Positions 16,442 to 51,310 of a DNA stretch of 64,000 nt are shown here, in pieces; the stretch's first letter is position 1; each line of letters starts with the position of its first letter. The notes below the pieces were generated by a model. That model searched no databases and had not been told where the DNA came from. It was given only the letters and a program-made list of their open reading frames with translations. The position numbers and the translations under genes are program-made. Origin of the DNA: Parasitella parasitica NRRL 2501 (Eukaryota; Fungi; Mucoromycota); contig MU619251.1 in assembly GCA_025201805.1 (NCBI GenBank), forward strand, positions 186,001 to 250,000, read 5' to 3'.

Positions 16442-17074
16442 TTAACACGAAAGAGCAGTGGACGGTAAATAGCCTAGTTTGACAGCCACCTCAATGATAT
16501 TTTTGGCCTCTACAATGGGAGGAGGAATTATGCTAGCAACTATAACCTTTTCAACTTTTTCATTGGGTTCCTCAAGGGTATCTAATTGAGATTGAAGCAT
16601 AGAGGGGGGCATGAAATGATCGACACGGCCTTGGATACGCTGTAACAACAATTCATGCGTTCCCTTTAGGTAGACAAAGATAACGGTGCCTAGTTCAGCA
16701 GGAACTTCACGAAAGATATCACGATAGACCTTCTTGAGTGAAGAACAAGTAACAACAAGAGCACGATTAGGCGAGTTGACATCCAAACCATATACTTGCT
16801 TTGCTTGCTCTGTTAAATGATCGCGGATCAGACGGAGCCATGGCCAGCGATCATCATCATCCAATGGGTGACCTAGATGATATTAATGTCGTCCTTCTCT
16901 TTCGCCACTGCATACAAACGAACCTGCAGCCATCTTTTCGACATTTAATAGCGGATGAAGAGAGTCTCCCTCGAGATAATAGCAATTCAAAAGTTTTTGC
17001 ATCTCGCAAGCAACACTTGTCTTGCCACAGCCAGCAGTACCCATTAGTACAAAGATTGGGACTGGAGTACTCAT
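16442..17074 (-). CDS. Gluconokinase (GntK/IdnK family); intron 16873-16923
   Basis: P-loop MGTAGCGKT, EGDSLHP..NVEKMAAG|HPLDDDDRWPWL, CSSLKKVYRD and HFMPPSMLQSQLDTLEEP. Confidence 0.93.
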
Positions 17075-17628
17075 TTTTGCTGTCTTGCTCCAGTTACAAT
17101 ATGAGAAACAAATGAAAAGAGAAAAGTAGACGTTTTTTTTTTTTATTTTTTTTTTATGCTTTTAGGTATAAAGCGGGAAGAATTCGACATTGTTTGTCCG
17201 ATGCCCTTCGATAGAGGATTGTATCACTTTGTTGATTTTTATTTTGTCTTTTCCCGTCCATCACATCAATTTCCCGAAGCTGGGGTATCTATAATGATAG
17301 TCCATACAGCCAGGCTTATTGGATTTAGCACTTTCTTATGTTAAATTGACAAAAGAAAGTCCTTAATGAGCACCCTATTCAACTGGATGTATAATTGCCC
17401 AGGACAGATCAAAGAGCGTAATTAGAGTCTAAGAACCTTTCGGGATGGAAGGTAAAAAGGAATGGCAGGTGCATATGGGGAGAGTGTGTGATGAGAAGGC
17501 GGAGGCGGCGGGATCTTCGAATGTTGGAGATAGTCAAGTTCGAAGAGGATTGTACAGTGTTTTCAGTCTCAATTTACTAGATTTTAGAAAGCATCACCCA
17601 CTTTCTTGAGTGATCTTGAGGTTAAATT

Positions 17629-17757
17629 GTCAGGAAAAAAGACAATGTTTGGTCAAATGTTTGAAACTAATTAGCCCAGCTGCTTACTCAAGAAGTTGAT
17701 CAAAATGATTCTAGACGTTGATTCAACATAAAGCTTAAACATAGATTGTATATTTAA
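17629..17757 (+). repeat. Left terminal inverted repeat
   Basis: GTCAGGAAAAAAGACAATGTTTGGTCAAATGTTTGAAACTAATTAGCCCAGCTGCTT, then TCAAGAAGTTGATCAA and AAAGCTTAAACATAGATTGTATAT. All match the reverse complement of the right end. Confidence 0.88.
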
Positions 17758-19183
17758 AATTTTTACAAACATACGATTCTAATATTATTCGTATATAAAG
17801 CAATGTCCTTTTTACATAAATTTATTACTTCAATTCTTTAAATTTTTTATGAAATCAAATGAGAATATATGGTTTTTGAAACGGTTGAAATGATTAAAAG
17901 GAATAATGATAGAATCGATTGAGAATGTAACACGACTTCTAGTGTGATAAGTTGATCAAACTGTTACCATATCAAAGCCAAAAAATACGCTCGAGGAGCG
18001 ACACACAAAGAAATGATAAAAGGTTTCATTTCATAACACAAACCATATATTGAGGCTGAAAGGGAATAAAGAACCAAACCTACAGAGACGAGCTCTACAA
18101 CTAGCGTCGTCAACATGTGCAGTGAGGAGAGCAAACAGACAGAAAAGATCATTTTCACTTGAATTTCCTTCAAAAAAGCCAAATTCAGAAGGCAATAACT
18201 GAATATTTCTCTGCATTTGAGACAGTAAAATTAAATCCTGACTAGCCACGAAATCTCTTAATTATCAGAGCACTGAAGTTAGAAATCATGTATAAACCTT
18301 CACATTTTCGATTTATTCTATTAAAAAACAATACATATCAACCACTATTTTGCTTGTTAATAATGTATCATCTATGTCATTCGCTTTTAATGGTCGCAAA
18401 AGACGCCTTATTGNNNNNNNNNNNNNNNNNNNNNNNNNNNNNNNNNNNNNNNNNNNNNNNNNNNNNNNNNNNNNNNNNNNNNNNNNNNNNNNNNNNNNNN
18501 NNNNNNNNNNNNNNNNNNNNNNNNNNNNNNNNNNNNNNNNNNNNNNNNNNNNNNNNNNNNNNNNNNNNNNNNNNNNNNNNNNNNNNNNNNNNNNNNNNNN
18601 NNNNNNNNNNNNNNNNNNNNNNNNNNNNNNNNNNNNNNNNNNNNNNNNNNNNNNNNNNNNNNNNNNNNNNNNNNNNNNNNNNNNNNNNNNNNNNNNNNNN
18701 NNNNNNNNNNNNNNNNNNNNNNNNNNNNNNNNNNNNNNNNNNNNNNNNNNNNNNNNNNNNNNNNNNNNNNNNNNNNNNNNNNNNNNNNNNNNNNNNNNNN
18801 NNNNNNNNNNNNNNNNNNNNNNNNNNNNNNNNNNNNNNNNNNNNNNNNNNNNNNNNNNNNNNNNNNNNNNNNNNNNNNNNNNNNNNNNNNNNNNNNNNNN
18901 NNNNNNNNNNNNNNNNNNNNNNNNNNNNNNNNNNNNNNNNNNNNNNNNNNNNNNNNNNNNNNNNNNNNNNNNNNNNNNNNNNNNNNNNNNNNNNNNNNNN
19001 NNNNNNNNNNNNNNNNNNNNNNNNNNNNNNNNNNNNNNNNNNNNNNNNNNNNNNNNNNNNNNNNNNNNNNNNNNNNNNNNNNNNNNNNNNNNNNNNNNNN
19101 NNNNNNNNNNNNNNNNNNNNNNNNNNNNNNNNNNNNNNNNNNNNNNNNNNNNNNNNNNNNNNNNNNNNNNNNNNNNNNNNNNN

Positions 19184-21920
19184 GTTAGAATGTTATGTTG
19201 CAGGCTCAACTATCATCAATCCTCCAGCTTCGTTTCTAAAGCCATCCAGTGGGCTTCGAAGCAAAGTCCAGACATCCAAAGAGAAAACGGATTACAGGAA
19301 TGCCCTGCAGTTGCAATTTCGAATCTGTCTTCTACGCTCAATTGTACCGTACATTGCAGAAAGAAAAATGGAGACTGTGATGAGCTGTATATCTCTTTAT
19401 TGAAAAGCACTAGAATACCTAAAGGCTTAGTGCAAGAAGCAGAAGCAAAAATCAAAAGTCCAGGAAAAATCACAACGATGTTAAGCACTGTGTATACACA
19501 GAATAAAAAGGCTGGAAGTCCAAAGAAGAGTTATGAGTACTGGACAGAATTTGTGGAGAAGAACTTCCAGTCTCTTTTGGATTTACTAGAAAAAAATGAT
19601 GGTAGCAATGATGATAAAGACAGTGAAGATAGCGAAGATGAAGACAATGATGGAGCGACTCAAGATGACGCTGAGCAATCAGGCGCATGCTCAATTTCTT
19701 TGAGTCAAGTGCTCAGAGACGACTTGAAAGACGACATCAGATCATTATTCATCAATACAATCGGTGCTACCAAGGAGCAAGTATCTAATTATACCTCTGA
19801 CTTCAGCAAGCAGGTTCTCAAAGTCGCTCTGTTGTTTGCTGAGTATACATTTGAATCTAATGCCGGCAACATCGAACTTGTCTACGATGGTGGAAACAGC
19901 ATTGCGTCAATACTGCCAGAAGGGTATTTAGAGGAAGATATCACTGTACCAAAGCCATTAAATTCCAGCTCTCTCGAGAATGACGAGTTCAATGCTCACT
20001 ATCAATCGCTGTTTCTAGAACCCCGCTTGGAACAAATGCACTCAACATACTATGGTCAAGTGGGTGTCGAAGAGTCTACCCTTGAAAATTCGCCTCTCCA
20101 TAAGGCAATTGTAAACGTTTTGGCCTTGATGAAGCCAACCCACATCAAAATCTGTCCTCGCACGTTACGAAGATGGCTCGCCAACAGTATTACACGAATC
20201 TTTGTATTATATGGTCCGAGAATACTATTGTCAACAAGCTACTTAGAAAGCTCTTGAACTTCTTGCTATTGATCCATTTATCTCCCGATCAAGACCATGC
20301 TATCAAGGCGAAGAAGACTGAAAGAGAATCGGCCAAGCTTCGAAAAAACCATAAAGGCAACCAGAGAGTGACTAATTGCAGCATCCCAATACCAGAAATT
20401 TCAGTGCTGAACAAGACAAGAAATGGAAGACGAAAGCTGTTTTCTGATGAAAAGATGCTAAAAGTCAAGTATGAAGAGAAAGGGAAGCATGAGGCAGCAG
20501 ACATGTGCCAGACGAGAATCGATACATATGAGCAAGTACTTTATAGAGAGGTAGGAGTCATCTGGTTTTTAAAGGAAGACATAGTGTCATAACTCGGAAT
20601 GTATGTGGCAAGCGGAAAGGGACAGAAATCCAAGGCAGCAGCAGCAACAGCAGAAGCAAGGAAAGCGTAAAGAAAGCGATACTGATGATAGAGAGGACTA
20701 CGAGAAAGGGAACAATACCAATGTATCTAGAAAAAGAATCAGTCAGTTTGTCGACATTGCAAGATCAACATTGTTTGCCACGCAAGATATCACAGACGCG
20801 TACCTCCAAGATCAGGATGAACACATCACCACACAAGAATCTGCAACAATCATCAAAATTACTAGCTTCATTCGGCCATTCATACCATCAAGTGAGACTT
20901 ATCATCTCCTTTCATGCCAACTCAAGTTCATCTTAATGGCAAACCAAGTACTGCGCTCTATCGGCTATGAAGGCCAAGTTGCTAAATTTATTCCAATAGT
21001 CAGACCCATTTATTTGCATGCACTTCTTATTGACACAACGACCCTGTATGCACTTTTCTGCTCGAGCAAAATTTCAAAACGGCTGTATCTTCGAGACTTT
21101 CAAGGCAATTACGTAAAGCATTAAGACGCCAACGCAAAAAAAGATGCCGTCTTTAGCAGTTTCTTTAACATTGTCAATCTGAAAAACGTGACATCAAGCT
21201 ATGGGATGGAGTTCGTAAATAGAATACACATGATACCAGGATCGAAGACTGTCAGATTGCATGGCAGCATTGGACATTTCAAGCCTAGTCGCAGGAACCC
21301 AGAAACAAAAAGCAAACTGAGCCATCATGCTGATGACGGCCAGTTACGAGCTAAGAAGGCTCAAAAGAAGGAGCTCGGTAAGTCACTCAGGGATTGCACA
21401 AACGAATTGTATCAGTTTCTTCAAGACAACGACAGTGTTCGTGGTTTCAAGAAAGCTTGGAGAACTAACTTTGAAGAGCAAAAACAATGTTATGAGAAAG
21501 TCGAAGATGCCCAAGAAAGGGACAAAACTTCTGATCTTAAGAAGACTTGGAAGGCTAAGGTTGAAGAAAAAGACGAGCGCTATCGGAATGTGGAAGCAGT
21601 AAAGTCAAGAAAGAGAGGATTAATGGTGGCTATTTGAGATGCAAAAGAGATGCTTCAGTCATTGCGGCGAGAGATTTCTGAATATGGAAAACCTTTGGTG
21701 GATGATTTGAAAAATCTAATAACATTTAAGCCCTTCACTGTGGGTAGCAATGGATGCTGTAGAAAGGTAGAGGAATGCAAGCTGGATGAAGACATGGATA
21801 TGACAACAGCCGTGTTCAGTGGCACGGATAATGGCATTATAAAGACTACCGAGACAGTGTTTTTTGATCTCGATCGTTTCGCATCACACTTGAAGCTGTA
21901 CAATAGGTTTTAGGTCTTGG
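19184..21920 (+). pseudogene. Decayed, 3'-truncated Fanzor1/TnpB-like large nuclease gene
   Basis: Chain of + strand ORF fragments broken by stops and frameshifts. Contains KFIPIVRP..LHALLIDTTTLYALF, DAVFSSFFNI...F.NRI, and a RuvC-I-like FSGTDNGIIKTTETV..F..HLKLYNRF. No RuvC-II, Zn finger or RuvC-III found. The 5' part runs into the N gap. Confidence 0.6.
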
Positions 21921-21953
21921 GTATGCAACTCAATGCCTTTAAGCACATATGTA

Positions 21954-23357
21954 TCTATCTATCTATCTATATAATTAAAAAAAACAGTCGCATTAAAGTC
22001 GCTTGAAGCTCAAGAATAAAGCAAAACAAACCTAAGAAGAAATGGAGTAAACAAATGCTTTAGTGGGTTTTTTCAGTTCCATTCCAGTTTGTTAAATTTC
22101 GAAAAGTCGGCATTGAGCCAAGCACATCCTCTATTTCAGAAACTAATTAAAAATACTTTAACACGTCAGAAAATTATAAGTAAAATATGTGCGTATGAAA
22201 CAAAACATGAAATAGATGATCATGTACATTAGTTTAAAATTAAAACTCTCTAAACAAAGTGAATAATGTCGAAATTCGGGCGAAAAAGCTTGAATCTTTC
22301 GAAATTGGACATGGTCTAACCAGCAAAGGCGACTTTTTAAGCTGCACGCTCTGTTTTATTTAATACAAATATGTTGACACTTTTTATTACTACAAACACA
22401 GAGTGCCTGCTATTAGAATCTGCTCAAGCTGTGGTCAAGAAGGCCATTCGCGTTCTGCAAGCAGGCTTTGCCTCAATAACACCCGTGCTAATACTAACAC
22501 TTGCGGGAGCTATGGTGTTATAGGCCATCATCGATCTTCTTATCGTCATTGCGCTAACAACATTGCTAATCGTATGACTCAAATTTGTTTTCACTTTACA
22601 ATCATAATCGAACTCTTTGTATAAACTGGGATCTCAATCTGAAACTATGAAACTAGATCAGCAAACAGAAACAATCAGCGTTAATGATGCAACAACCAGC
22701 AGACGTATTTGTTCAAGCTGTGGACAAGAAAGTCATTTGCGATCTACCAGTAGATTGGGTGCCAAATTAATACACAACAATACTCATAACATGGCTAGAA
22801 GAAGTACACCCTCTTTCACCAAACGCCATGATATTGGTGGAAGGAACAGCATCTGTCGCCATTGTCAAGCACACATGTGGGGCATAGCGAAAAATGGAGG
22901 CACCAGTGCAAACCCCGGTTTCTCTTTGTACTGTCCTGAGTTGGTTGCTAATTTTCTGTTAGACCGGTATTCACCATGACCATCAAGGCTCAACACTCGA
23001 CTTTCTTGGTCTTTTTCTCACATAGCCAGTTATATGTTGCTTTCTCGCGCATTAAGCAGCTATCTTTAATTAAAATTCTTCTGCATAGAAATACCTCAAC
23101 TACCAAAAACTATACTGGATCATACACCGATAATATTGTATTCCATGAAGTATTTAAATAACTCTACTGATTTTTACGCTTTTTTTTCCTATTGTGCGTT
23201 ACTACATCTATATTTTTATTTCTGTCTAACAATATATTTTAAGTTATAGATAAACAACAATAAAAGAGCATTGAATATCTGATTAGCACTTATCAAAAGA
23301 TTGAGCTCCCGGTAGGGCGACGATGGCCGTCGTGAGCGAAGCGAGCAGGTCAGCTAG
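21954..23357 (+). mobile_element. Non-autonomous, internally deleted Helitron
   Basis: 5' A|TCTATCTATC..TATATAATTAAAA. CCHC-like repeats (CSSCGQEGHSRS...C). RepHel N-terminal-like IGGRNSICRHCQAHMW..FSLYC. Pif1 helicase tail FSHSQLYVAFSR...TDNIVFHEVF*. GC-rich subterminal hairpin CGACG-ATGGC-CGTCG (23318-23332). 3' end CTAG|T at 23354-23358. Confidence 0.88.
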
Positions 23358-23373
23358 TATATTCTGAATTTAG

Positions 23374-24467
23374 CGATATAGAGGATGATCTAGAAGAAGA
23401 ACGTAACGATGAAAGCGACATTGTTAGTTTTACTGACAAGGTGGTATCATAAGCTGCAAATCTCGCTTCAGACGAGTGAGTATTTTTTAGCGCTAATATT
23501 TCTGTTCCTTTACACAACTAATAATGCAAATTGAGTAGGGTTGGTAAATTAAAAATAATTGATTTATCATCAATGATGGCTGTGGATGTATTGAAAGAAG
23601 AGACTTCTGCTAATCATCAATTTGAGTCGATAATTAATTCAACCAAGATTGATCCAATTCCGATATCTACTCAAGCTGATAATCTTATCAATGCACTCAA
23701 TGATACGCCTTTATCGATGCAACCATTGCGCAAAACACTGTATAGTCATGGCTTTAATGAAAGCTTTGATTTTGTCACCAACCATGATATTGGGTTTATG
23801 GAAGTAACAGTAAGATATTTGTAATCATCACAAAAAGATTTTTTGGTGTATTATTTATATTCATATCCATTTCACAAACCTGTAGTTTGGATTTGATGAG
23901 CTCTCCAAACAGCCCTTTAAATACTATTATGCTGGAGAGAACGGCAGCCACTTATCTTAATATCTATATTGTAAATCAATTATTTATCACTAACAACGAT
24001 GTGATAGAACTTGGTTGGCTTGAGAGAGAATTCTGTTCTACCGATAGAACTAAATTTGACGGAATCATCTTTAAAATTGGCAATAAGTCGATTGCCCCGG
24101 GATTTGTTGAATTCTCAGGAGGCATCAACGACAAGACATCACCTCTAAAGTATACAAAAGACAATGAAAAGTTATATAGTAATATGATAAAGGCTATGGT
24201 TGATATTAAAACTGATAAAATGTTCTGTATGCGATGTTATGGTAAGAGTATTTCTTATTTAGTATTAAATTAAATCCTTCTTTTACAATAGGCCATCATA
24301 TTTACTTTGAAAAACTGGTTGATGTTAATGGTGTGATGTATAGAACGATTGATGTAAATATGGAAATCCCAACTACGCCGAGAAAGTTAATAGCCTACAT
24401 CAATGAAATACCAAAGATACTTGCATGGAAGCAGGCTTTGATTAATCATGCCATCAGCCTAAATTAA
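23374..24467 (+). pseudogene. 5'-truncated spliced gene encoding a PD-(D/E)xK (REase-fold)-like protein
   Basis: Introns 23476-23538, 23821-23885 and 24242-24291 splice in frame. Motifs LERT...KFDG...FVEFSGG. One premature TAA at ~23450. No start codon visible downstream of the Helitron. Stop at 24465-24467. Confidence 0.55.
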
Positions 24468-24547
24468 TGTCATTATTTACAAATCCTTCCTGCTTCTTTG
24501 TAAATATATTTAAATATGTACATTCTATTACTTCAAATATCATGAAA

Positions 24548-24690
24548 TAGATATAAAATCTATGCTTAAGCTTTGTATTGAAAATTCATTTTGACTTGAA
24601 GTTGATCAACTTCTTGAATAAATTATTTTCAAGCAGCTGGGCTAATTAGTTTCAAACATTTGACCAAATATTGTCTTTTTCCTGACTGTA
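24548..24690 (-). repeat. Right terminal inverted repeat
   Basis: Reverse complement of 17629-17757. Contains the perfect palindrome GAAGTTGATCAACTTC (24598-24613). Ends ACTG+TA. Confidence 0.88.
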
Positions 24691-24967
24691 CTAAAAAGAT
24701 TACCAGTAAGCTAGCTTTATATTTCACTCTAGCCATGCATCATTCACTATTGCATTTCATGGCACGAAATGTATTGATACCCTATGAACAATCTGTTTAC
24801 ATAAGCACAAGAACAACTGCCCTGTTTTTCACCTGGGAAATGTCAGACTTCCGAAACATGTTGGATTGAGATTTTACCCCATATGTTCAAATAATTATAG
24901 CTTGTATCACTTTTATCGAAAAACAATAAAAAAGATAGCATATAAATGTCATGAAAAAGAACCGTTT

Positions 24968-27144
24968 TCAAGATGGAGAATAATAGTCGAAAAGCGACTT
25001 GCTATTGCACTTATTCTCATTCGATCTACAGTAAAATTGTTCGTTTAACAGCCATTTTTATCTCAAACATACAGTAATATTACCGTTTGATGCGTTTAGG
25101 TGCAGTGCCGCCATCAGTATGATAGTTACTGCTACACTCTGATTTTTCCTGTTGTAGGATAGCCTTTACTTCAACTTTGCTCAAGCATTCATCTACATGT
25201 TGATTGAATTGTGAGTTGTTGAGCTTCAATTGTCGATTACAGATGGGACAAACAAGTGTGTTGAGGATATCTTTTACTTTCTGGTCTGTTGTTTGTTGGT
25301 CTTGATGAAGATGATGTTCTGGAAGCGGCGCTTTTATAAAATACTAATAACGATCAAGACCTAACAATTCTATGCATAAACAAGTATTCAATACCTTTAA
25401 AACACTTTCATCTTCGCTTCCTCTAGGTTTGATGATAGATATACGAATGCCCATTAATCGAATATTTATCGGTAGTTCCTTGACCAGTAGCTCTTTAGCT
25501 ATCCTCTCAATATCCTTTGCTTTCCATATATAACTTGGGAATGTCTTTGATCGAATACGAATATCATAGTTGACGGATTTCAATTTGATGCCAACATTTC
25601 GACCCATGTATCCAGCCGCTTCTAAATCTTGTTCGAGCATAGCAGAAAGTTCCTTGATCTTTTCAAACAATTCTGCCGGGTCTGACATTGCACTGAATGT
25701 GCGTTCTGTGCTCATGCTCTTTCGATCGACATCTGTATTGAATGTAGTGCTGCCAGTGCCTAGGTAACTTTTAAGCATGAATTGAAAACTAATGGGACTC
25801 AGTAGTTTGTACAATACAGCTCTATGCGGGTATATGTCACCGCATGTACGAACACCGAGTGCATCTAATACGCGCTCTGTTACTCTGCCCACACCTGGAA
25901 TCTGCCGTACTCGCAGATCCTTGACGAATTTTATAATAGATGCTCGATCAATTGGCAGATAATATTGACCGTCGGGTTTATTGATGTCACTACACACTTT
26001 GGCCAGTGTCTTGTTACAGGCAATGCCTATGATTGTCAAAGTTCGTCTGGCATTTCATTGCTATACACGACTACAATTTCCATACCTGCACTTGCTGTCA
26101 ATTGAGATGACTCGAATATTTCTCTTCTTATTTGCTGCACTAATTGCACCGGCGTCAAGTCTGTAGTTTTGAGATACTTTGTACAGGGCGCATATTAACA
26201 CAGAGCATACATGCGGTCAGACATTAAAAAAAAAAAAAAAAAAATACCTCTGTCAAGTTCAAATAAGCCTAGCAGATCGTTACAGTTAGCCTTCCTATGC
26301 TTTCCCGACTAGCAACTTTACCTCATCTAAACTCATGGGTACAAAATTAGGATCATACTTTTGAAACACGGCTCTCACTTTGTCTGAGGCCTCTCGGTAT
26401 TTAGGAAAATGGAGAGGGATCATGACAAGTTCAGGGCACAGTTTGCGCGCAATGAAACCAGGCATTGCGCTGCGAACGCCATACTGTCGAGCGATATAAT
26501 TACTAGTGCACAGCATGGACATGCCTCCTACCGCCATGGGAACCTTTTTCAGGCTTGGATCAGCCAATTCTTCAACAGACGCATAAAATGCGTCCATGTC
26601 CATGTGGCAAATGCATTGCGTCAAATCTCTAGTCTCTTCTAAATCTCGGATCATGTTGTCCACAATGCGCCGTTCGAACGAGAGATCCTTGTCTTTGATT
26701 AACTCATACTTTGCGAGAATCGCATTGATCCGCTTTGTTACTGCCTCGTCTCTCTTTCTTTCTTTTTCAAAAAATTTCGAGCCCTGTAAAATACTACATG
26801 AGCAATTGGAAATCTCAGAGTAAAACATTGGGTACCAACCTTGGATAATTCGTAAATCATTGTATTGACTTTTTCTTTATCCACATTCCCCATGCCAGCC
26901 TGAAATAGTTCTTCAGAAGTAAGAACTCTGCAAAGAAACGTAGCATAAAAAGTGCTCAAACCTTGTTGGCTGATGGCCCGGCTAGTAAGCTCTTGAAAGA
27001 GTGATCTTTGGCATCAGAAACGGGATAATTTACCATCATTTCCTCACCATTGGATTCCTGCTCTTGCCCAATAGTGTCCTCATCGTCCAAGAAGAAATCC
27101 TCTTCCTCCATGATCTGAGACGAGAAATCCAGTAAATCATCCAT
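24968..27144 (-). CDS. POLK: DNA polymerase kappa (Y-family, DinB), multi-exon
   Basis: KAGM..VDKEKVN..IYELSKGSKFF, HMDMDAFYASVE, TSNYIARQYGVRS, SLDEAYL, KVCSDINKPDGQ, UBZ finger CPIC..FNQHVDECL. The final small exon encodes a PIP-like KSLFDYY. Confidence 0.95.
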
Positions 27145-47495: not shown

Positions 47496-48870
47496 GCCTC
47501 ATATATTTCTTGTACATTATACTTTTTTTTTTATCCTATTTCTATTCCTTATTATATCTCTTTATTTGTATAAATTTTATGTTGACTTCTTGCAGTATAA
47601 TAAACAGAAGTGTGCCTCAGGGCTTAGTGTTGAAGTCTTGTACTAAATCAAGAATTTTATTTATTGATATTTACAAAAGTGAATAATAATGGTAGTGACA
47701 GCTGTGAGGATTCCCGATACCGAGTTACGCATTATTTTTTTTACATTGGATCAATTTCGGCCACTTTGGCACACTGCTCATAAGTGCGTCATGACCTCTA
47801 ATTCGCAGGTTGTGAGGGTTTACGTACTGACGAAAGAAGACAAAAGTAGCTCAAAATTCAAATCATAAGTTTACTGTCTTATAGAGTGTCGTATATAAGC
47901 ACAGTTTAACATACTTTAAATTATTATAACATGCGTTGATTTGGGGGAGGGAGGGAGAGGTTTACTTTAATAATGTTGTAGCCGGTCTTGAAAAGAGCAC
48001 AACAGATGATAGTATAGGATCAAAATGGAAAGGTAATCAATGTACCAGATACAAAACTAATAATTTTGTTGATGATTGAGAAGAATTTGTTTATTTATAA
48101 TGTCTAAATGTTTATCAATCTATAGATACAATCATTGAATTGTCAAATAAGATTATAGTACAGTATTTGTCAGAGCAAGGGACATATTTATGTGCGATCA
48201 GCTAGTTATTATGAATGTGAATCATTCATCTATAAGTTTAGCTTCGCAATTTAGACCAAGTAGAGTAGAATCCAAATAGATGGTTTCTTATACAATGCAT
48301 TCCATGATTACTTTATTTAACCTTAGATCCGATCAGATACGGTTGAAAAAGTGGTAACCGTAGTTTTCTATAGTATCTAATAATGCTACTAAGACCTACT
48401 AAAAGAGCCATATTCATAATTCAGAAGAAACATCAGATGTGGTTGAATGAAAAGATCGAAATAACGAATTAAGTTGCGATCTTGATAGACAAAGTTGATA
48501 AAAGATATAACTTTGATCAATACAGGTGACCGTTTCATCTTCAAGCAGTGTGTTTCCAAGATTTACTGTCATTTTGCAGTATCAGAAAAGAAAAGAAGTT
48601 CAAGTAAATGATAAAGGTCATGGTAATTGTGATATTACATGTTAGGGTTTCTATAAAAAAATCTTTTATTTCTGATAAAAGCCGAGAATTTTCTGAGAGA
48701 AAAGAGTAACTGCTTTAATTTGTCTCATCGGTGGTGAAAATATTGAGAAAATGTGTTGTAAAATAAGCTATCTACATTATATCTATAAGTTCAAGGTAGT
48801 CTTTAATATTTTTTACGGTTGTCTATTGACAAACATCCGTGATTCTGGGTGAATGTGCACCTGTTGACTT

Positions 48871-48940: not shown

Positions 48941-51279
48941 TGGTGGCAGATTGTTTCCTTTTCTCTGACATTTTCTTATACCTTCAGTTGATCTGGCGTC
49001 TGATAGTGTAGAAGGTCTCGTCAGACAGGTAAAAAAACTGGGTTCTGTATATCAAAATGGTTCAAAAGTGTCTTTGCAAGGCCAGATACGTAGATTTTAG
49101 GCGCCGATTTTTTTATTTTCGGTTCTACGCGGACTTCAATGTATTGTTGTCAGAAAAAAGACAAAAACTGTAAGAAAATAATGTCTAGTGATTTCAAAAA
49201 CGAAAAAAAAAAAGAAATGTAAAGTAATGCATTAGACTATAAGGCATCTTTTGATAACATATTTGCATAGATTAGAGCAACTTTTTGTAATGTTTAAGTT
49301 GACATCAGATGAAGGAAGCTACTTTTCTGACTTTTTTCGGAAAAGTATTTTTCAAAATCGGAGCGTGTGGTCGTCAGGTCAGGTACAGACATGCAAGTAC
49401 TACCATTAGAAATCCAAGAAGCACAAAAATTAAATAAAATAGGCTGCAATAGTTTTTCTTTTTAATTGGGTAAGCTATGGCTTCTCAAAGCTAATACTTT
49501 CTTCAAAAAAAAACATCATTTTTCTCTAATAGCGGCGATTAAACGCGTTCAAAATCAGGAAGGACAAATTCTTTCAGAAACTCCATTTGTACAATTAGAA
49601 AACAAAATTACTTCTTTAAGGCAAGATATCATCCCCCGATACTATGCCTACCTCGGCTGTTAATCTATGATAATAGCTGTATTTTTGGACGCTCTACACG
49701 ATGGTATTTTTTCATAATTCTCATATACTCATGGAAGGAATTATGTCGAGAAAACCTCAAAACAGATTAAGAGGGAAAAGTCAATATTTTGCTTAATCAG
49801 AGCGCATTTCCAGTCTCTCAGATCAAGGAATGACCTTTTACGATCATTTTCCTCTAATATATGCTATAGTAAAAAGTTGCATTTTTGGGGTCAAAATCGA
49901 GAATAATGCATAATCGTTGATTTTGCATGTGTGGATACAAGGAAAAAATTGAAAAAATCCGTCATTTTGCATCGAAAAAAAAATCATGCTCAAATTGCTC
50001 CAAAATCATATATATTATAGTTTTTTCCCGATGGATACTATTTCTGGTGTTTTCAGGGCACTTTGATTATGAAAATTAATCAAAAAATGATTAATGAAGC
50101 TAAAGTTCTTGCTTTTAAGCTGTGAAAATATCTTTCTAGAGACGACATCATGTCAGTTTCAATTTTAGTACATGACAAAGCCCTATAAAGTAAGTAATTT
50201 TGATGCCACAAGTCTACTTTTCTTCATAGTAATATGATATACAGGTGCGGCTCATCGGGTTGGACGCAGAAGAAGATGATTAATGAATTAATTTGCTAAT
50301 TGCTGGTGACAGAGAAGTCCTATTACCATTGTTGCTTATAATAATGCTTAATGTCAGCTCAAGGGTTCCTTTTTTATGATTCTAATGCTAAGCGAGTAAA
50401 ATAAAAAGTAAAGTAGAGGTTAGGATTAAGATTGAGGGTAATTTTACTAACAAAATTTAAGCTTCATAATAGGCTTCTGGTAAAATCCAAATTCCAGGCA
50501 AAGTACTGTAGAGTATCAAATTCTGAATAGGGGAAAACTTGCTATACCAAACACATTTTGTATATCAACCCATTCTTTATAACGAGTACCGCCTGTATAT
50601 TCTTTCTTTAATATTGGATACGCTGACTTAACTTAACAGATCTAACATAAAATGGTAATGTGAAGTTATATTATCATTTGCTTGAATATGCTATGAATTT
50701 TGAAAAGAGATAATTAAAGAAGAAAACAAAATGAAATGGTTGGTTTAAACGTAGATTCAGGGATAACTGCCATTTTATAAATGCATAATTTGACAGATAA
50801 GTTCAACTTAAAGCCTTACTAGTATATGCACTTTGTAGTTTAATACTTTGATAGCTTTGTAATTTAGTTTAAATACCTTTGCAGCTCTATAGACTTATTT
50901 AAATATGAGCTTATTCAGACATTTGATATCTAACAGATATATCTGAGATAATTTATCAACATTTAAACATTATGAAGTTCAAACAATTTTGTGGCCCAAA
51001 AACCCAAATAGTCGTTTATTTAAAAGTACTATTGCTCCCTGCACAATGGCTGCTTGATCAAAAATAAATAATTAGAACGTCGCAATTTCGCATATCGTAA
51101 TAAAAATGTTTTCTATTCTTGGGCATTGTATTCAATGCTTCTTGTCCCTAATTGAAATGCTCTTAGGGAGATCTTTCTTTTCTCTCAGAAACTTTTCAGT
51201 GTTTATCAGAAATAATAGATTTGTTATCAGAAACCTTAATGTATATTATCATAAACACCGTGACATTTATCATCAATTG

Positions 51280-51310
<31 letters not shown>

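What the first reader, a model, noticed from the sequence alone, without database searches (positions are those of the whole stretch)
19184..21920. Truncated Fanzor1/TnpB-like gene (RNA-guided nuclease relic)
Seen: at least ~900 codons of broken + strand coding sequence. It includes F.P......L.IDTTTLY.LF, then FSSFFN...F..RI, a K/E-rich coiled-coil insertion, and a beta-strand-Asp motif FSGTDNG with a downstream F..HLKLYNRF. Known (from recall, not a search): IDTTTL-type and xxGxDxG motifs in this order characterise the REC/WED region and RuvC-I of Fanzor1. The sequence stops at the Helitron, so RuvC-II, the Zn finger and RuvC-III are absent. The long N-terminal region and coiled-coil insertion suggest a larger-than-typical subfamily (inference).
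Basis: partly seen in the sequence, partly recalled or inferred. Interest (0 to 1): 0.7.

Follow-up and report, generated by a model that had tools for sequence, protein, structure and literature searches.

The report
Dead large Fanzor1 gene, Helitron-interrupted
This is the broken front three-quarters of a large, intron-containing Fanzor1 gene (a family of transposon-borne DNA cutters whose tested members are RNA-guided, catalogued in pin-mould fungi since 2013), cut off where a probable Helitron transposon sits in a likely intron, so it is a correctly identified but ordinary relic.

Summary
About 890 codons (19185-21920) match residues 8-835 of 1,114-aa Mucorales proteins. Those relatives carry the RuvC-I, shifted RuvC-II, C4 zinc finger and RD motifs, and a model of one folds like solved Fanzor1 (Foldseek E 2e-9).

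Two corrections:
- One 'break' (20551-20608) is a conserved 58-nt intron with a dead acceptor.
- Coding similarity ends at a likely second intron donor (21921), so the Helitron-like element (21954-23357) lies inside that intron.

The last exon and the guide-RNA end are absent from the window. The DNA after the Helitron is a 5'-truncated, unrelated, single-copy gene. That suggests recombination between two Helitron copies, or an assembly collapse; I could not tell these apart.

The copy also has two frameshifts and three stops. It belongs to a multi-copy subfamily labelled Parasitella parasitica; all paralogue gene models seen were fragments, though one contig shows a spliced copy.

The 'larger subfamily' is real but known: Bao & Jurka 2013 list 1,067-1,375-aa Mucorales Fanzor1s, and Saito 2023 label close relatives FZ1. 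I found no biochemical test of this large clade. Verdict: dead new member of a known kind.

The parts
18179..18413 (+). Upstream non-coding part of the Fanzor-family repeat; other copies carry different sequence further left, so the true left end is not seen here
   Evidence: depth rises in bin 18085-18401; single-copy contig ends at 18208; loose ends before 18179; joints 18208->19303 and 18320->19583 link this part to the gene in other copies
18414..19183 (.). Assembly gap (770 N); likely holds the first ~7 codons
   Evidence: loose end before 19186 in X1 and X5 holds an in-frame ATG; paralogue P0129 begins MKFKKRQLEYYVAG
19185..20550 (+). Fanzor1 exon 1, visible part: extra N-terminal helical domain, acidic linker, first WED strand and REC; frameshifts near 19344 (5 nt extra) and 20121 (1 nt missing)
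   Evidence: tblastn frames change at these points; contigs of other copies lack both indels (table 4); domain names inferred from the model of P0002
20551..20608 (+). Intron 1, 58 nt, GT donor, acceptor reads TGG (not AG)
   Evidence: same site and length, with GT..AG, in relative L001 1410-1467; run X7 has a contig joining 20550 to the letters of 20609-20620 (table 5c); 15 of 150 family fragments end at profile 440-479
20609..21920 (+). Fanzor1 exon 2: REC2/WED, coiled-coil insertion, RuvC-I; premature stops at 21122 (TAA), 21635 (TGA), 21911 (TAG)
21815..21835 (+). RuvC-I motif FSGTDNG, predicted catalytic Asp at 21827-21829 (D805 of P0002)
21921..21953 (+). Likely start of intron 2 (phase-1 donor G|GTATGC)
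   Evidence: similarity ends here; another copy reads G|GTATGT then TAA (loose end); 12 of 150 family fragments end at profile 855-885, five of them with a Gly-Lys soon after the matched end and then a stop within 13 residues, as expected of G|GTAAG
21954..23357 (+). Probable non-autonomous Helitron (A|TC ... CTAG|T), multi-copy, internally deleted; 5' edge uncertain by a few TATC units
   Evidence: termini; depth about 17-28 times flank in X5 and another copy diverging at 23358; Atlas lead only; no Pfam match or homologue
23358..24467 (+). 5'-truncated, single-copy gene of an unrelated, unnamed Mucoromycota family (FSGG motif; PD-(D/E)XK-like is my recalled guess); begins at the Helitron 3' edge
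   Evidence: single-copy contig 23334-24659
17629..17755 (+). Left arm of a ~130-bp inverted repeat enclosing the whole nest; low copy, so not the end of the amplified Fanzor element
   Evidence: I22; 108 identities in 126 aligned columns; depth
24555..24686 (-). Right arm of the inverted repeat; no target-site duplication of 4-12 bp found

Best explanation
The region is a dead genomic copy of a large (~1,100-aa) Mucorales Fanzor1 gene that keeps RuvC-I but has two frameshifts, three stops, a dead splice acceptor and no last exon, with a probable Helitron lying in its likely second intron.

Shown: identity with the family, the lesions, intron 1, the absence of the last exon from the window, and the multi-copy state of both the Fanzor and the Helitron-like sequence.

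Inferred from characterised Fanzor1: an intact copy would make a spliced three-exon mRNA and a guide RNA from the element's right end. It would cut DNA beside a short motif using D805/E1005/D1053 (P0002 numbering), likely helping its carrier DNA transposon persist. This copy can do none of this.

Inferred for the truncation: both the Fanzor and the next gene are cut at the two edges of one Helitron-like element. The likeliest history is two same-direction Helitron copies, one in each gene, that recombined and deleted the DNA between them (about 0.45). An assembly collapse of two such copies is the main alternative (about 0.3).
For: Sequence: 4 relatives of 985-1,114 aa at E 1.2e-79 to 6.8e-64; residues 8-835 of P0002 tile 19185-21919.

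Motifs: 11 of 12 long relatives have the shifted-Glu/zinc-finger/RD tail, with D-to-E spacing of 200-204 (162 in one).

Fold: profile hit to SpuFz1, E 5.2e-8; Foldseek E 1.8e-9; VIA Z 18.1, rmsd 5.2, 548 aligned, model 167-1081 on SpuFz1 18-633.

Same-species paralogues hold the missing tail: P0041 is 86% identical to exon 2 over 135 aa and runs on into last-exon sequence shared with P0075, which has GDRG, TNEHNTSQTC and RD. Contigs of other copies follow the window to 21934-21940 and then go on with 205-579 other letters.

The downstream gene lacks the 130-150 N-terminal residues of its longer relatives. It starts at the Helitron edge, and that N-terminal part was not found in the window.
Against: The fold test was on relative P0002, not on the relic. 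Single-sequence searches of PDB with P0001 and P0002 found no Fanzor. Pfam gives only sub-threshold Cas12f1-like_TNB hits.

Intron 2 is inferred from motif and fragment ends, with no spliced read.

The Helitron call rests on termini and repeat structure. Its 3' hairpin is no better than shuffles (z -0.72), and its ORF has no homologue at E <= 0.001 among 78 candidates.

The Fanzor-Helitron junction could not be tested, because the read tool skipped 21941-21986 as a repeat. At many positions no laid contig showed the window's own letter (table 3).
Confidence: 0.9

Rival explanations
1. The truncation is an assembly artefact. Two Helitron copies a few kb apart were collapsed, and the real locus still holds the last Fanzor exon and the start of the next gene.
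For: The assembly has N gaps. The Helitron-like element is 1.4 kb and multi-copy. Both neighbouring genes are cut at its edges. No listed contig bridges it. The best run holds only 0.60 of the stretch's words.
Against: No direct evidence against. The paired inverted repeats show that left and right flanks belong to one locus, but not what lies between. The window's private alleles appear at about single-copy depth at several sites from 18244 to 21641, so the Fanzor copy itself is real.
Confidence: 0.3
2. The Fanzor fragment and the Helitron are one mobile unit, a Helitron-borne Fanzor as in Chlamydomonas CRe-1/2/3, amplified together.
For: Depth is similarly high over both parts and drops to single copy at 23358. 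Helitron-associated Fanzor1s are known (PMC3627910, passages).
Against: Contigs from other copies leave the window's path at 21934-21940, and Helitron-side contigs enter with other upstream sequence. Paralogues keep last-exon sequence. The element has its own TC start inside the likely intron.
Confidence: 0.05
3. The truncated gene still makes a nuclease-dead, RNA-binding REC/WED protein that the host has co-opted.
For: A contig with intron 1 removed exists in run X7 at depth 12; the tool only guesses that X7 is RNA, though it also shows intron-like joints in host genes.
Against: Frameshifts at 19344 and 20121 and the dead acceptor lie upstream of most of the fold, and three stops follow. The spliced contig differs from the window (17 letters skipped after the joint) and so likely comes from another copy. 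The guide-RNA end is missing.
Confidence: 0.02
4. The protein family is not a Fanzor but another RuvC/RNase H-fold protein or transposase.
For: No Pfam hit above threshold. The RuvC-I motif is GTDNG, not the DPG used in published Fanzor1 patterns (10.1101/2023.08.09.552727, passage). Structural identity to solved Fanzors is only 9-14%.
Against: The top 7 Foldseek and top 7 VIA rows are all Fanzor1 and span the solved chains. The unbiased wide search also ranks GtFz1 first, Z 15.8, rmsd 4.2, 509 aligned. Published tables class close relatives as Fanzor1.
Confidence: 0.02

Closest known systems
Large Mucorales Fanzor1 families of Bao & Jurka 2013 (MCi-8 closest by eye; also MCi-2 to MCi-10, ROr-4, PBl-3; PMC3627910)
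   Same: Size (1,067-1,375 aa), 2-4 exons, GTDNG-type RuvC-I, GDRG, TNEYNSSQTC and RD motifs. P0049, which holds a 10-residue MCi-8 word, scores E 1.2e-91 with the family profile. I compared the printed MCi-8 sequence by eye only.
   Different: A separate Parasitella subfamily: P0001, P0041, P0162 and P0068 form one clade, SH-aLRT 100, in a quick tree of 38 rows. It has a ~30-residue internal duplication in the coiled coil. This copy is broken, and its element ends and transposase partner were not found.
FZ1-labelled entries in Saito et al. 2023 supplement file 3 (Mucor plumbeus KAG2200097.1, Parasitella parasitica CEP15936.1; PMC10432273)
   Same: Same clade by shared motifs; the printed sequences resemble P0004/P0033 and P0003 by eye.
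   Different: These are tree entries only. The tested-orthologue table (file 5) names no Mucor or Rhizopus protein, and its two Parasitella proteins are the 849- and 786-aa short type.
SpuFz1 (Spizellomyces punctatus Fanzor1; PDB 8gkh, 9ceu-9cez)
   Same: Best sequence-profile and structure match; covers model residues 167-1081. IDTIILY aligns with IDTTTLY.
   Different: 638 aa. It lacks the ~165-residue N-terminal extension (predicted helical domain at 38-138 of P0002) and has much shorter REC and WED insertions (inferred from lengths and the model).
PpFz1 (Parasitella parasitica Fanzor1; PDB 9cf0, 9cf1; PMC11423790)
   Same: Same species label and same fold (Foldseek E 1.5e-7; VIA Z 16.6, rmsd 7.0, 557 aligned).
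   Different: A different, 849-aa family. It is not among the 6 chains hit by the family profile at E <= 10.

Membership tests
Fanzor1 | C-terminal motif D-X(125,275)-[TS][TS]-X-X-C4 zinc finger-X(5,50)-RD (Bao & Jurka 2013) in full-length family members | tested here: met
   11 of 12 long relatives; the miss is C-terminally cut; motif definition
Fanzor1 | The same motif complete in this genomic copy | tested here: not met
   Only the first Asp is present; no last-exon match in the window. This marks the copy as truncated, not as a non-member.
Fanzor1 | Rearranged RuvC-II: Gly/Pro at the canonical Glu and an alternative Glu downstream (Jiang et al. 2023) | tested here: met
   P0002 has G969 in MFVGDRG and E1005, 36 residues on; definition from PMC10530073 passage; the aligned SpuFz1 segment reads GD
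Fanzor1 | REC-WED-RuvC-TNB fold closer to solved Fanzor1 than to TnpB, Fanzor2 or Cas12 | tested here: met
   Model of P0002: VIA Z 15.8-18.1 for Fanzor1; 13.9 for the best Cas12 (rmsd 9.2, 389 aligned); 9.7 for Fanzor2; 9.9 for TnpB
Fanzor1 | Eukaryotic host, introns, multi-copy mobile element | tested here: met
   Intron 1 conserved; paralogue gene models on 7 other contigs; high depth
Fanzor1 | Guide (omega) RNA at the element's right end | tested here: inconclusive
   The right end is absent from this copy; no Rfam match in 17000-25000; no locus with an intact 3' end was obtained
Fanzor1 | Defined transposon ends (TIR/TSD) and a partner transposase superfamily | tested here: inconclusive
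   Left end not reached and right end lost; the enclosing inverted repeat is low copy and so not this element's end; no whole genome held
Fanzor1 | RNA-guided, TAM-dependent DNA cleavage | not testable with these tools
   Needs biochemistry on an intact relative
Helitron (insert at 21954-23357) | 5' TC, 3' CTAG, inserted between A and T, multi-copy | tested here: met
   sharp 3' boundary at 23358 in another copy
Helitron (insert at 21954-23357) | 3' subterminal hairpin | tested here: inconclusive
   A 5-bp stem is predicted, but z = -0.72 against shuffles
Helitron (insert at 21954-23357) | Rep/helicase coding sequence or a remnant of it | tested here: inconclusive
   No Pfam match; 0 of 78 candidates at E <= 0.001; Atlas lead 0.84 to a cluster with 35% Helitron_like_N; the cysteine-motif likeness to RepHel N-termini is recalled

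The most novel reading that the evidence does not exclude
The relic points to a biochemically untested clade of ~1,100-aa fungal Fanzor1 nucleases. Its intact members (such as P0002, P0187, P0188, P0196-P0198) are active RNA-guided cutters. Their confidently predicted ~100-residue N-terminal helical domain and long REC/WED insertions, which do not align to any solved Fanzor, give them a different guide length, target motif or protein partner, and the Parasitella subfamily is still transcribed and spliced from at least one copy.
Probability: 0.3. Interest if true: 0.45.

Novelty: new member of a known kind. Interest (0 to 1): 0.17.

Why it matters
The locus itself matters little: it cannot make a nuclease or a guide. 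It shows that the species behind the solved PpFz1 carries a second, much larger Fanzor1 subfamily that spread and then largely decayed, and it fixes the exon structure needed to annotate such genes. The residual value is the clade. Apparently intact 1,080-1,150-aa relatives exist in Mucor-labelled and Rhizopus-labelled genomes and carry a predicted domain not seen in solved Fanzors. I found no test of them in eight literature searches of a partial library.

Tried and rejected
Calls that led nowhere:
- No whole genome is held, so copy mapping and element ends could not be done directly.
- Pfam found nothing on the six Fanzor ORF pieces and only sub-threshold TNB hits on relatives.
- Single-sequence PDB searches found no Fanzor.
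- A model from a 4-sequence alignment failed (pLDDT 35.5) and was not used.
- The metagenome scan gave 1 locus from 197 candidate stretches, without element ends. The viral scan gave 0 of 185.
- No RNA holder is on record; X7 is a guessed RNA run.
- Rfam: 0 matches.
- The wide fold search listed nothing specific to residues 38-138 of P0002.
- The careful tree did not finish; the quick tree of 38 chosen proteins was used.
- Earlier findings by place and by sequence: none.

Ideas considered and rejected:
- That the ~130-bp inverted repeats are the Fanzor element's ends. They sit at about 2-copy depth while the Fanzor is many-fold higher, and no TSD was found.
- That the in-frame run after removing the Helitron is the Fanzor's continuation. 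It is single-copy and belongs to the FSGG family.
- That 17760-18180 is the missing start of the FSGG gene or a transposase remnant. No profile or Pfam match.

Supplements of the bioRxiv preprint were not seen, and cells over 400 characters were cut in the Saito and Xu tables. Either could hide a tested member of this clade.

Full report
Setting. The window is fungal genomic DNA with ordinary host genes and N gaps; one gap of 770 bases ends at 19183. No whole genome was held. A protein 100% identical to a window ORF is labelled Parasitella parasitica by its source, as are the closest paralogues. I take that as the species label.

Observation. Reading 20585-21910 with X at two stops and searching proteins of 775-2,210 aa gave 4 hits among 3,339 candidates: 985-1,114 aa, 38-41% identical, E 1.2e-79 to 6.8e-64, all Mucor- or Rhizopus-labelled hypothetical proteins. 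By tblastn, residues 8-835 of the 1,114-aa P0002 tile 19185-21919. Of 154 family proteins, 125 hit the window at E <= 1e-3 and none hit outside 19185-21961. The visible coding length is about 890 codons.

Identity. The relatives continue for about 280 residues beyond the window's end point, through MFVGDRG, TNEYNSSQTC..C, a second CxxxxC and RD. Of 12 long relatives, 12 have RuvC-I and 11 have the zinc-finger/RD tail. This fits the Fanzor motif of Bao & Jurka (PMC3627910, passages) and the rearranged RuvC-II of Jiang et al. (PMC10530073, passages). A profile of four relatives found 1,301 representatives at E <= 0.001, of which the best 150 were listed. I aligned the four relatives with 146 of those 150. 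That profile hit SpuFz1 at E 5.2e-8; the next of 6 hits was Cas12f at E 0.11, and PpFz1 was not hit. AlphaFold2 on the same alignment gave a confident model of P0002 (pLDDT 83.1, pTM 0.73). All 7 Foldseek matches at E <= 0.001 are Fanzor1 structures (best 1.8e-9). VIA gives Z 18.1, rmsd 5.2, 548 residues, for model 167-1081 on SpuFz1 18-633. The wide search ranks GtFz1 first. Against this: single-sequence PDB searches and Pfam were negative or sub-threshold, and the fold tested is a relative's.

Gene structure. The frame change at 20551-20608 is an intron. Relative L001 has a 58-nt GT..AG intron at the same site. One contig of run X7 joins 20550 to the letters of 20609-20620. In addition, 15 of 150 family fragments end near this point. 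In the window the acceptor reads TGG. True lesions are a 5-nt excess at 19344 and a 1-nt loss at 20121 relative to other copies, and stops at 21122, 21635 and 21911. Similarity ends at G|GTATGC at 21920/21921. Another copy reads G|GTATGT, and 12 of 150 fragments end here, five in a way expected of G|GTAAG. I infer a second intron; the hexamer alone is common (57 matches in the window), and no spliced read was seen.

The Helitron and the lost exon. The insert runs from A|TC at 21954 to CTAG|T at 23357, 33 nt inside the inferred intron. It is multi-copy, and another copy leaves the window's path at 23358. Its hairpin is not better than shuffles, and its ORF has only a weak Atlas lead, so 'Helitron' is probable. 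An intronic insertion alone would leave the last exon downstream. What follows instead is single-copy DNA (contig 23334-24659, 0 differences) encoding a different Mucoromycota family (25 hits among 73 candidates; unnamed in the Atlas). That gene starts at the Helitron edge and lacks 130-150 N-terminal residues found in longer relatives, which were not found in the window. Two genes cut at the two edges of one repeat suggest recombination between two copies, or an assembly collapse. The read tool skipped 21941-21986 and its tables were cut, so the junction is untested. The nest lies within ~130-bp inverted repeats at 17629 and 24686 that are low copy. They tie the two flanks to one locus but are not the Fanzor's ends.

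The family in this species. In run X5, depth over 19353-21888 is 436-813 against 28-31 on single-copy flanks; the tool warns that this is not a copy number. Paralogue gene models lie on 7 other contigs (P0046, P0103/P0065, P0182, P0168, P0041, P0129, P0075); the window's own models were left out. All are fragments of 182-589 aa, and the long-protein search returned none from this species. P0041 and P0075 hold last-exon sequence. Other copies' contigs run on past 21934-21940 with other letters. In a quick tree of 38 chosen proteins, the relic groups with three other Parasitella-labelled proteins (SH-aLRT 100) beside Mucor families. The spliced contig in X7 (depth 12) suggests some copy is transcribed; it skips 17 letters relative to the window and may itself be broken, and X7 is only guessed to be RNA.

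How it works. This copy does nothing (shown by its lesions). An intact member would likely act as other Fanzor1s do: a guide RNA from the element's right end directs RuvC cutting next to a short motif. This is inferred from PMC11423790 and PMC10530073 (passages). The role in transposon retention is my own background knowledge. Element ends, partner transposase and guide were not found.

What is known. [quoted passage not shown] Section 12 (read whole) places some in MuDR-like or unclassified elements. Passages of supplement files 4, 8 and 9 show MCi-8 sharing this family's motifs (compared by eye, with a computed link through P0049). Saito et al. (PMC10432273; supplement hits only) label close Mucor and Parasitella relatives FZ1 but list no Mucor or Rhizopus protein among tested orthologues. 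PpFz1 is a separate 849-aa family (Table S3). [quoted passage not shown] Eight searches showed no biochemical study of the large clade; the library is partial. Two earlier AI notes on other genomes describe similar relics; they are not evidence.

Verdict. The locus is a dead new member of a known family; interest 0.17. The untested large clade, with its predicted extra N-terminal domain (P0002 38-138, block pLDDT about 89-97), is the only lead worth carrying forward.

Noticed in passing
P0203, P0208 (cluster of P0003): A sister Fanzor1 family has Parasitella-labelled fragments 91-94% identical over 340-350 aa to Mucor circinelloides-labelled proteins, and its cluster also holds Rhizopus arrhizus- and M. 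atramentarius-labelled members. Horizontal transfer by this mycoparasite is possible; contamination or mislabelling is not excluded, and no host-gene baseline was computed.
   Followed up: partly
window 17629-24686: ~130-bp inverted repeats enclose the nest. The right arm extended by 2 nt reads CAGTCAGG beside TA, which recalls Tc1/mariner ends (recalled). One relative of the enclosed FSGG gene (P0018) is fused to a DDE_3 domain, so that family may ride on Tc1/mariner elements, or the gene model may be a fusion.
   Followed up: partly
window 23358-24467: A widespread, unnamed Mucoromycota protein family (FSGG motif, no Pfam match, Atlas clusters unnamed); PD-(D/E)XK-like by my recall only.
   Followed up: partly
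window 22375-22934: Run X7 holds a 1,208-nt contig of a longer copy of the Helitron-like element that skips 60 nt at 22572-22633 (intron-like) and continues past the window's internal deletion at 22934, suggesting that family is transcribed.
   Followed up: no
P0092, P0170, P0175: More distant, longer members (991-1,823 aa) have a further N-terminal segment that recalls the C-terminal half of an OTU-type protease (recalled, untested).
   Followed up: no
window 21827: Some other copies have G>A at the RuvC-I Asp codon (2 contigs, depth 73 of 433 in X5), so part of the family has lost the catalytic residue.
   Followed up: no
window 17134-17600: A further low-copy repeat lies just left of the inverted repeat (raised depth; short hits in X11); no Pfam match.
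   Followed up: partly
window 48586-48705 and 51176-51295: Another inverted-repeat pair (120 nt, 75% complementary, 2,470 nt apart), possibly a non-autonomous DNA transposon.
   Followed up: no
runs X8-X16: Runs sharing a sample or species label with the holders hold almost none of the stretch's words. X11 covered 8 of 30 bins, with short pieces, but has a 2,018-nt contig colinear with the Fanzor, so the label may cover two diverged lineages.
   Followed up: partly
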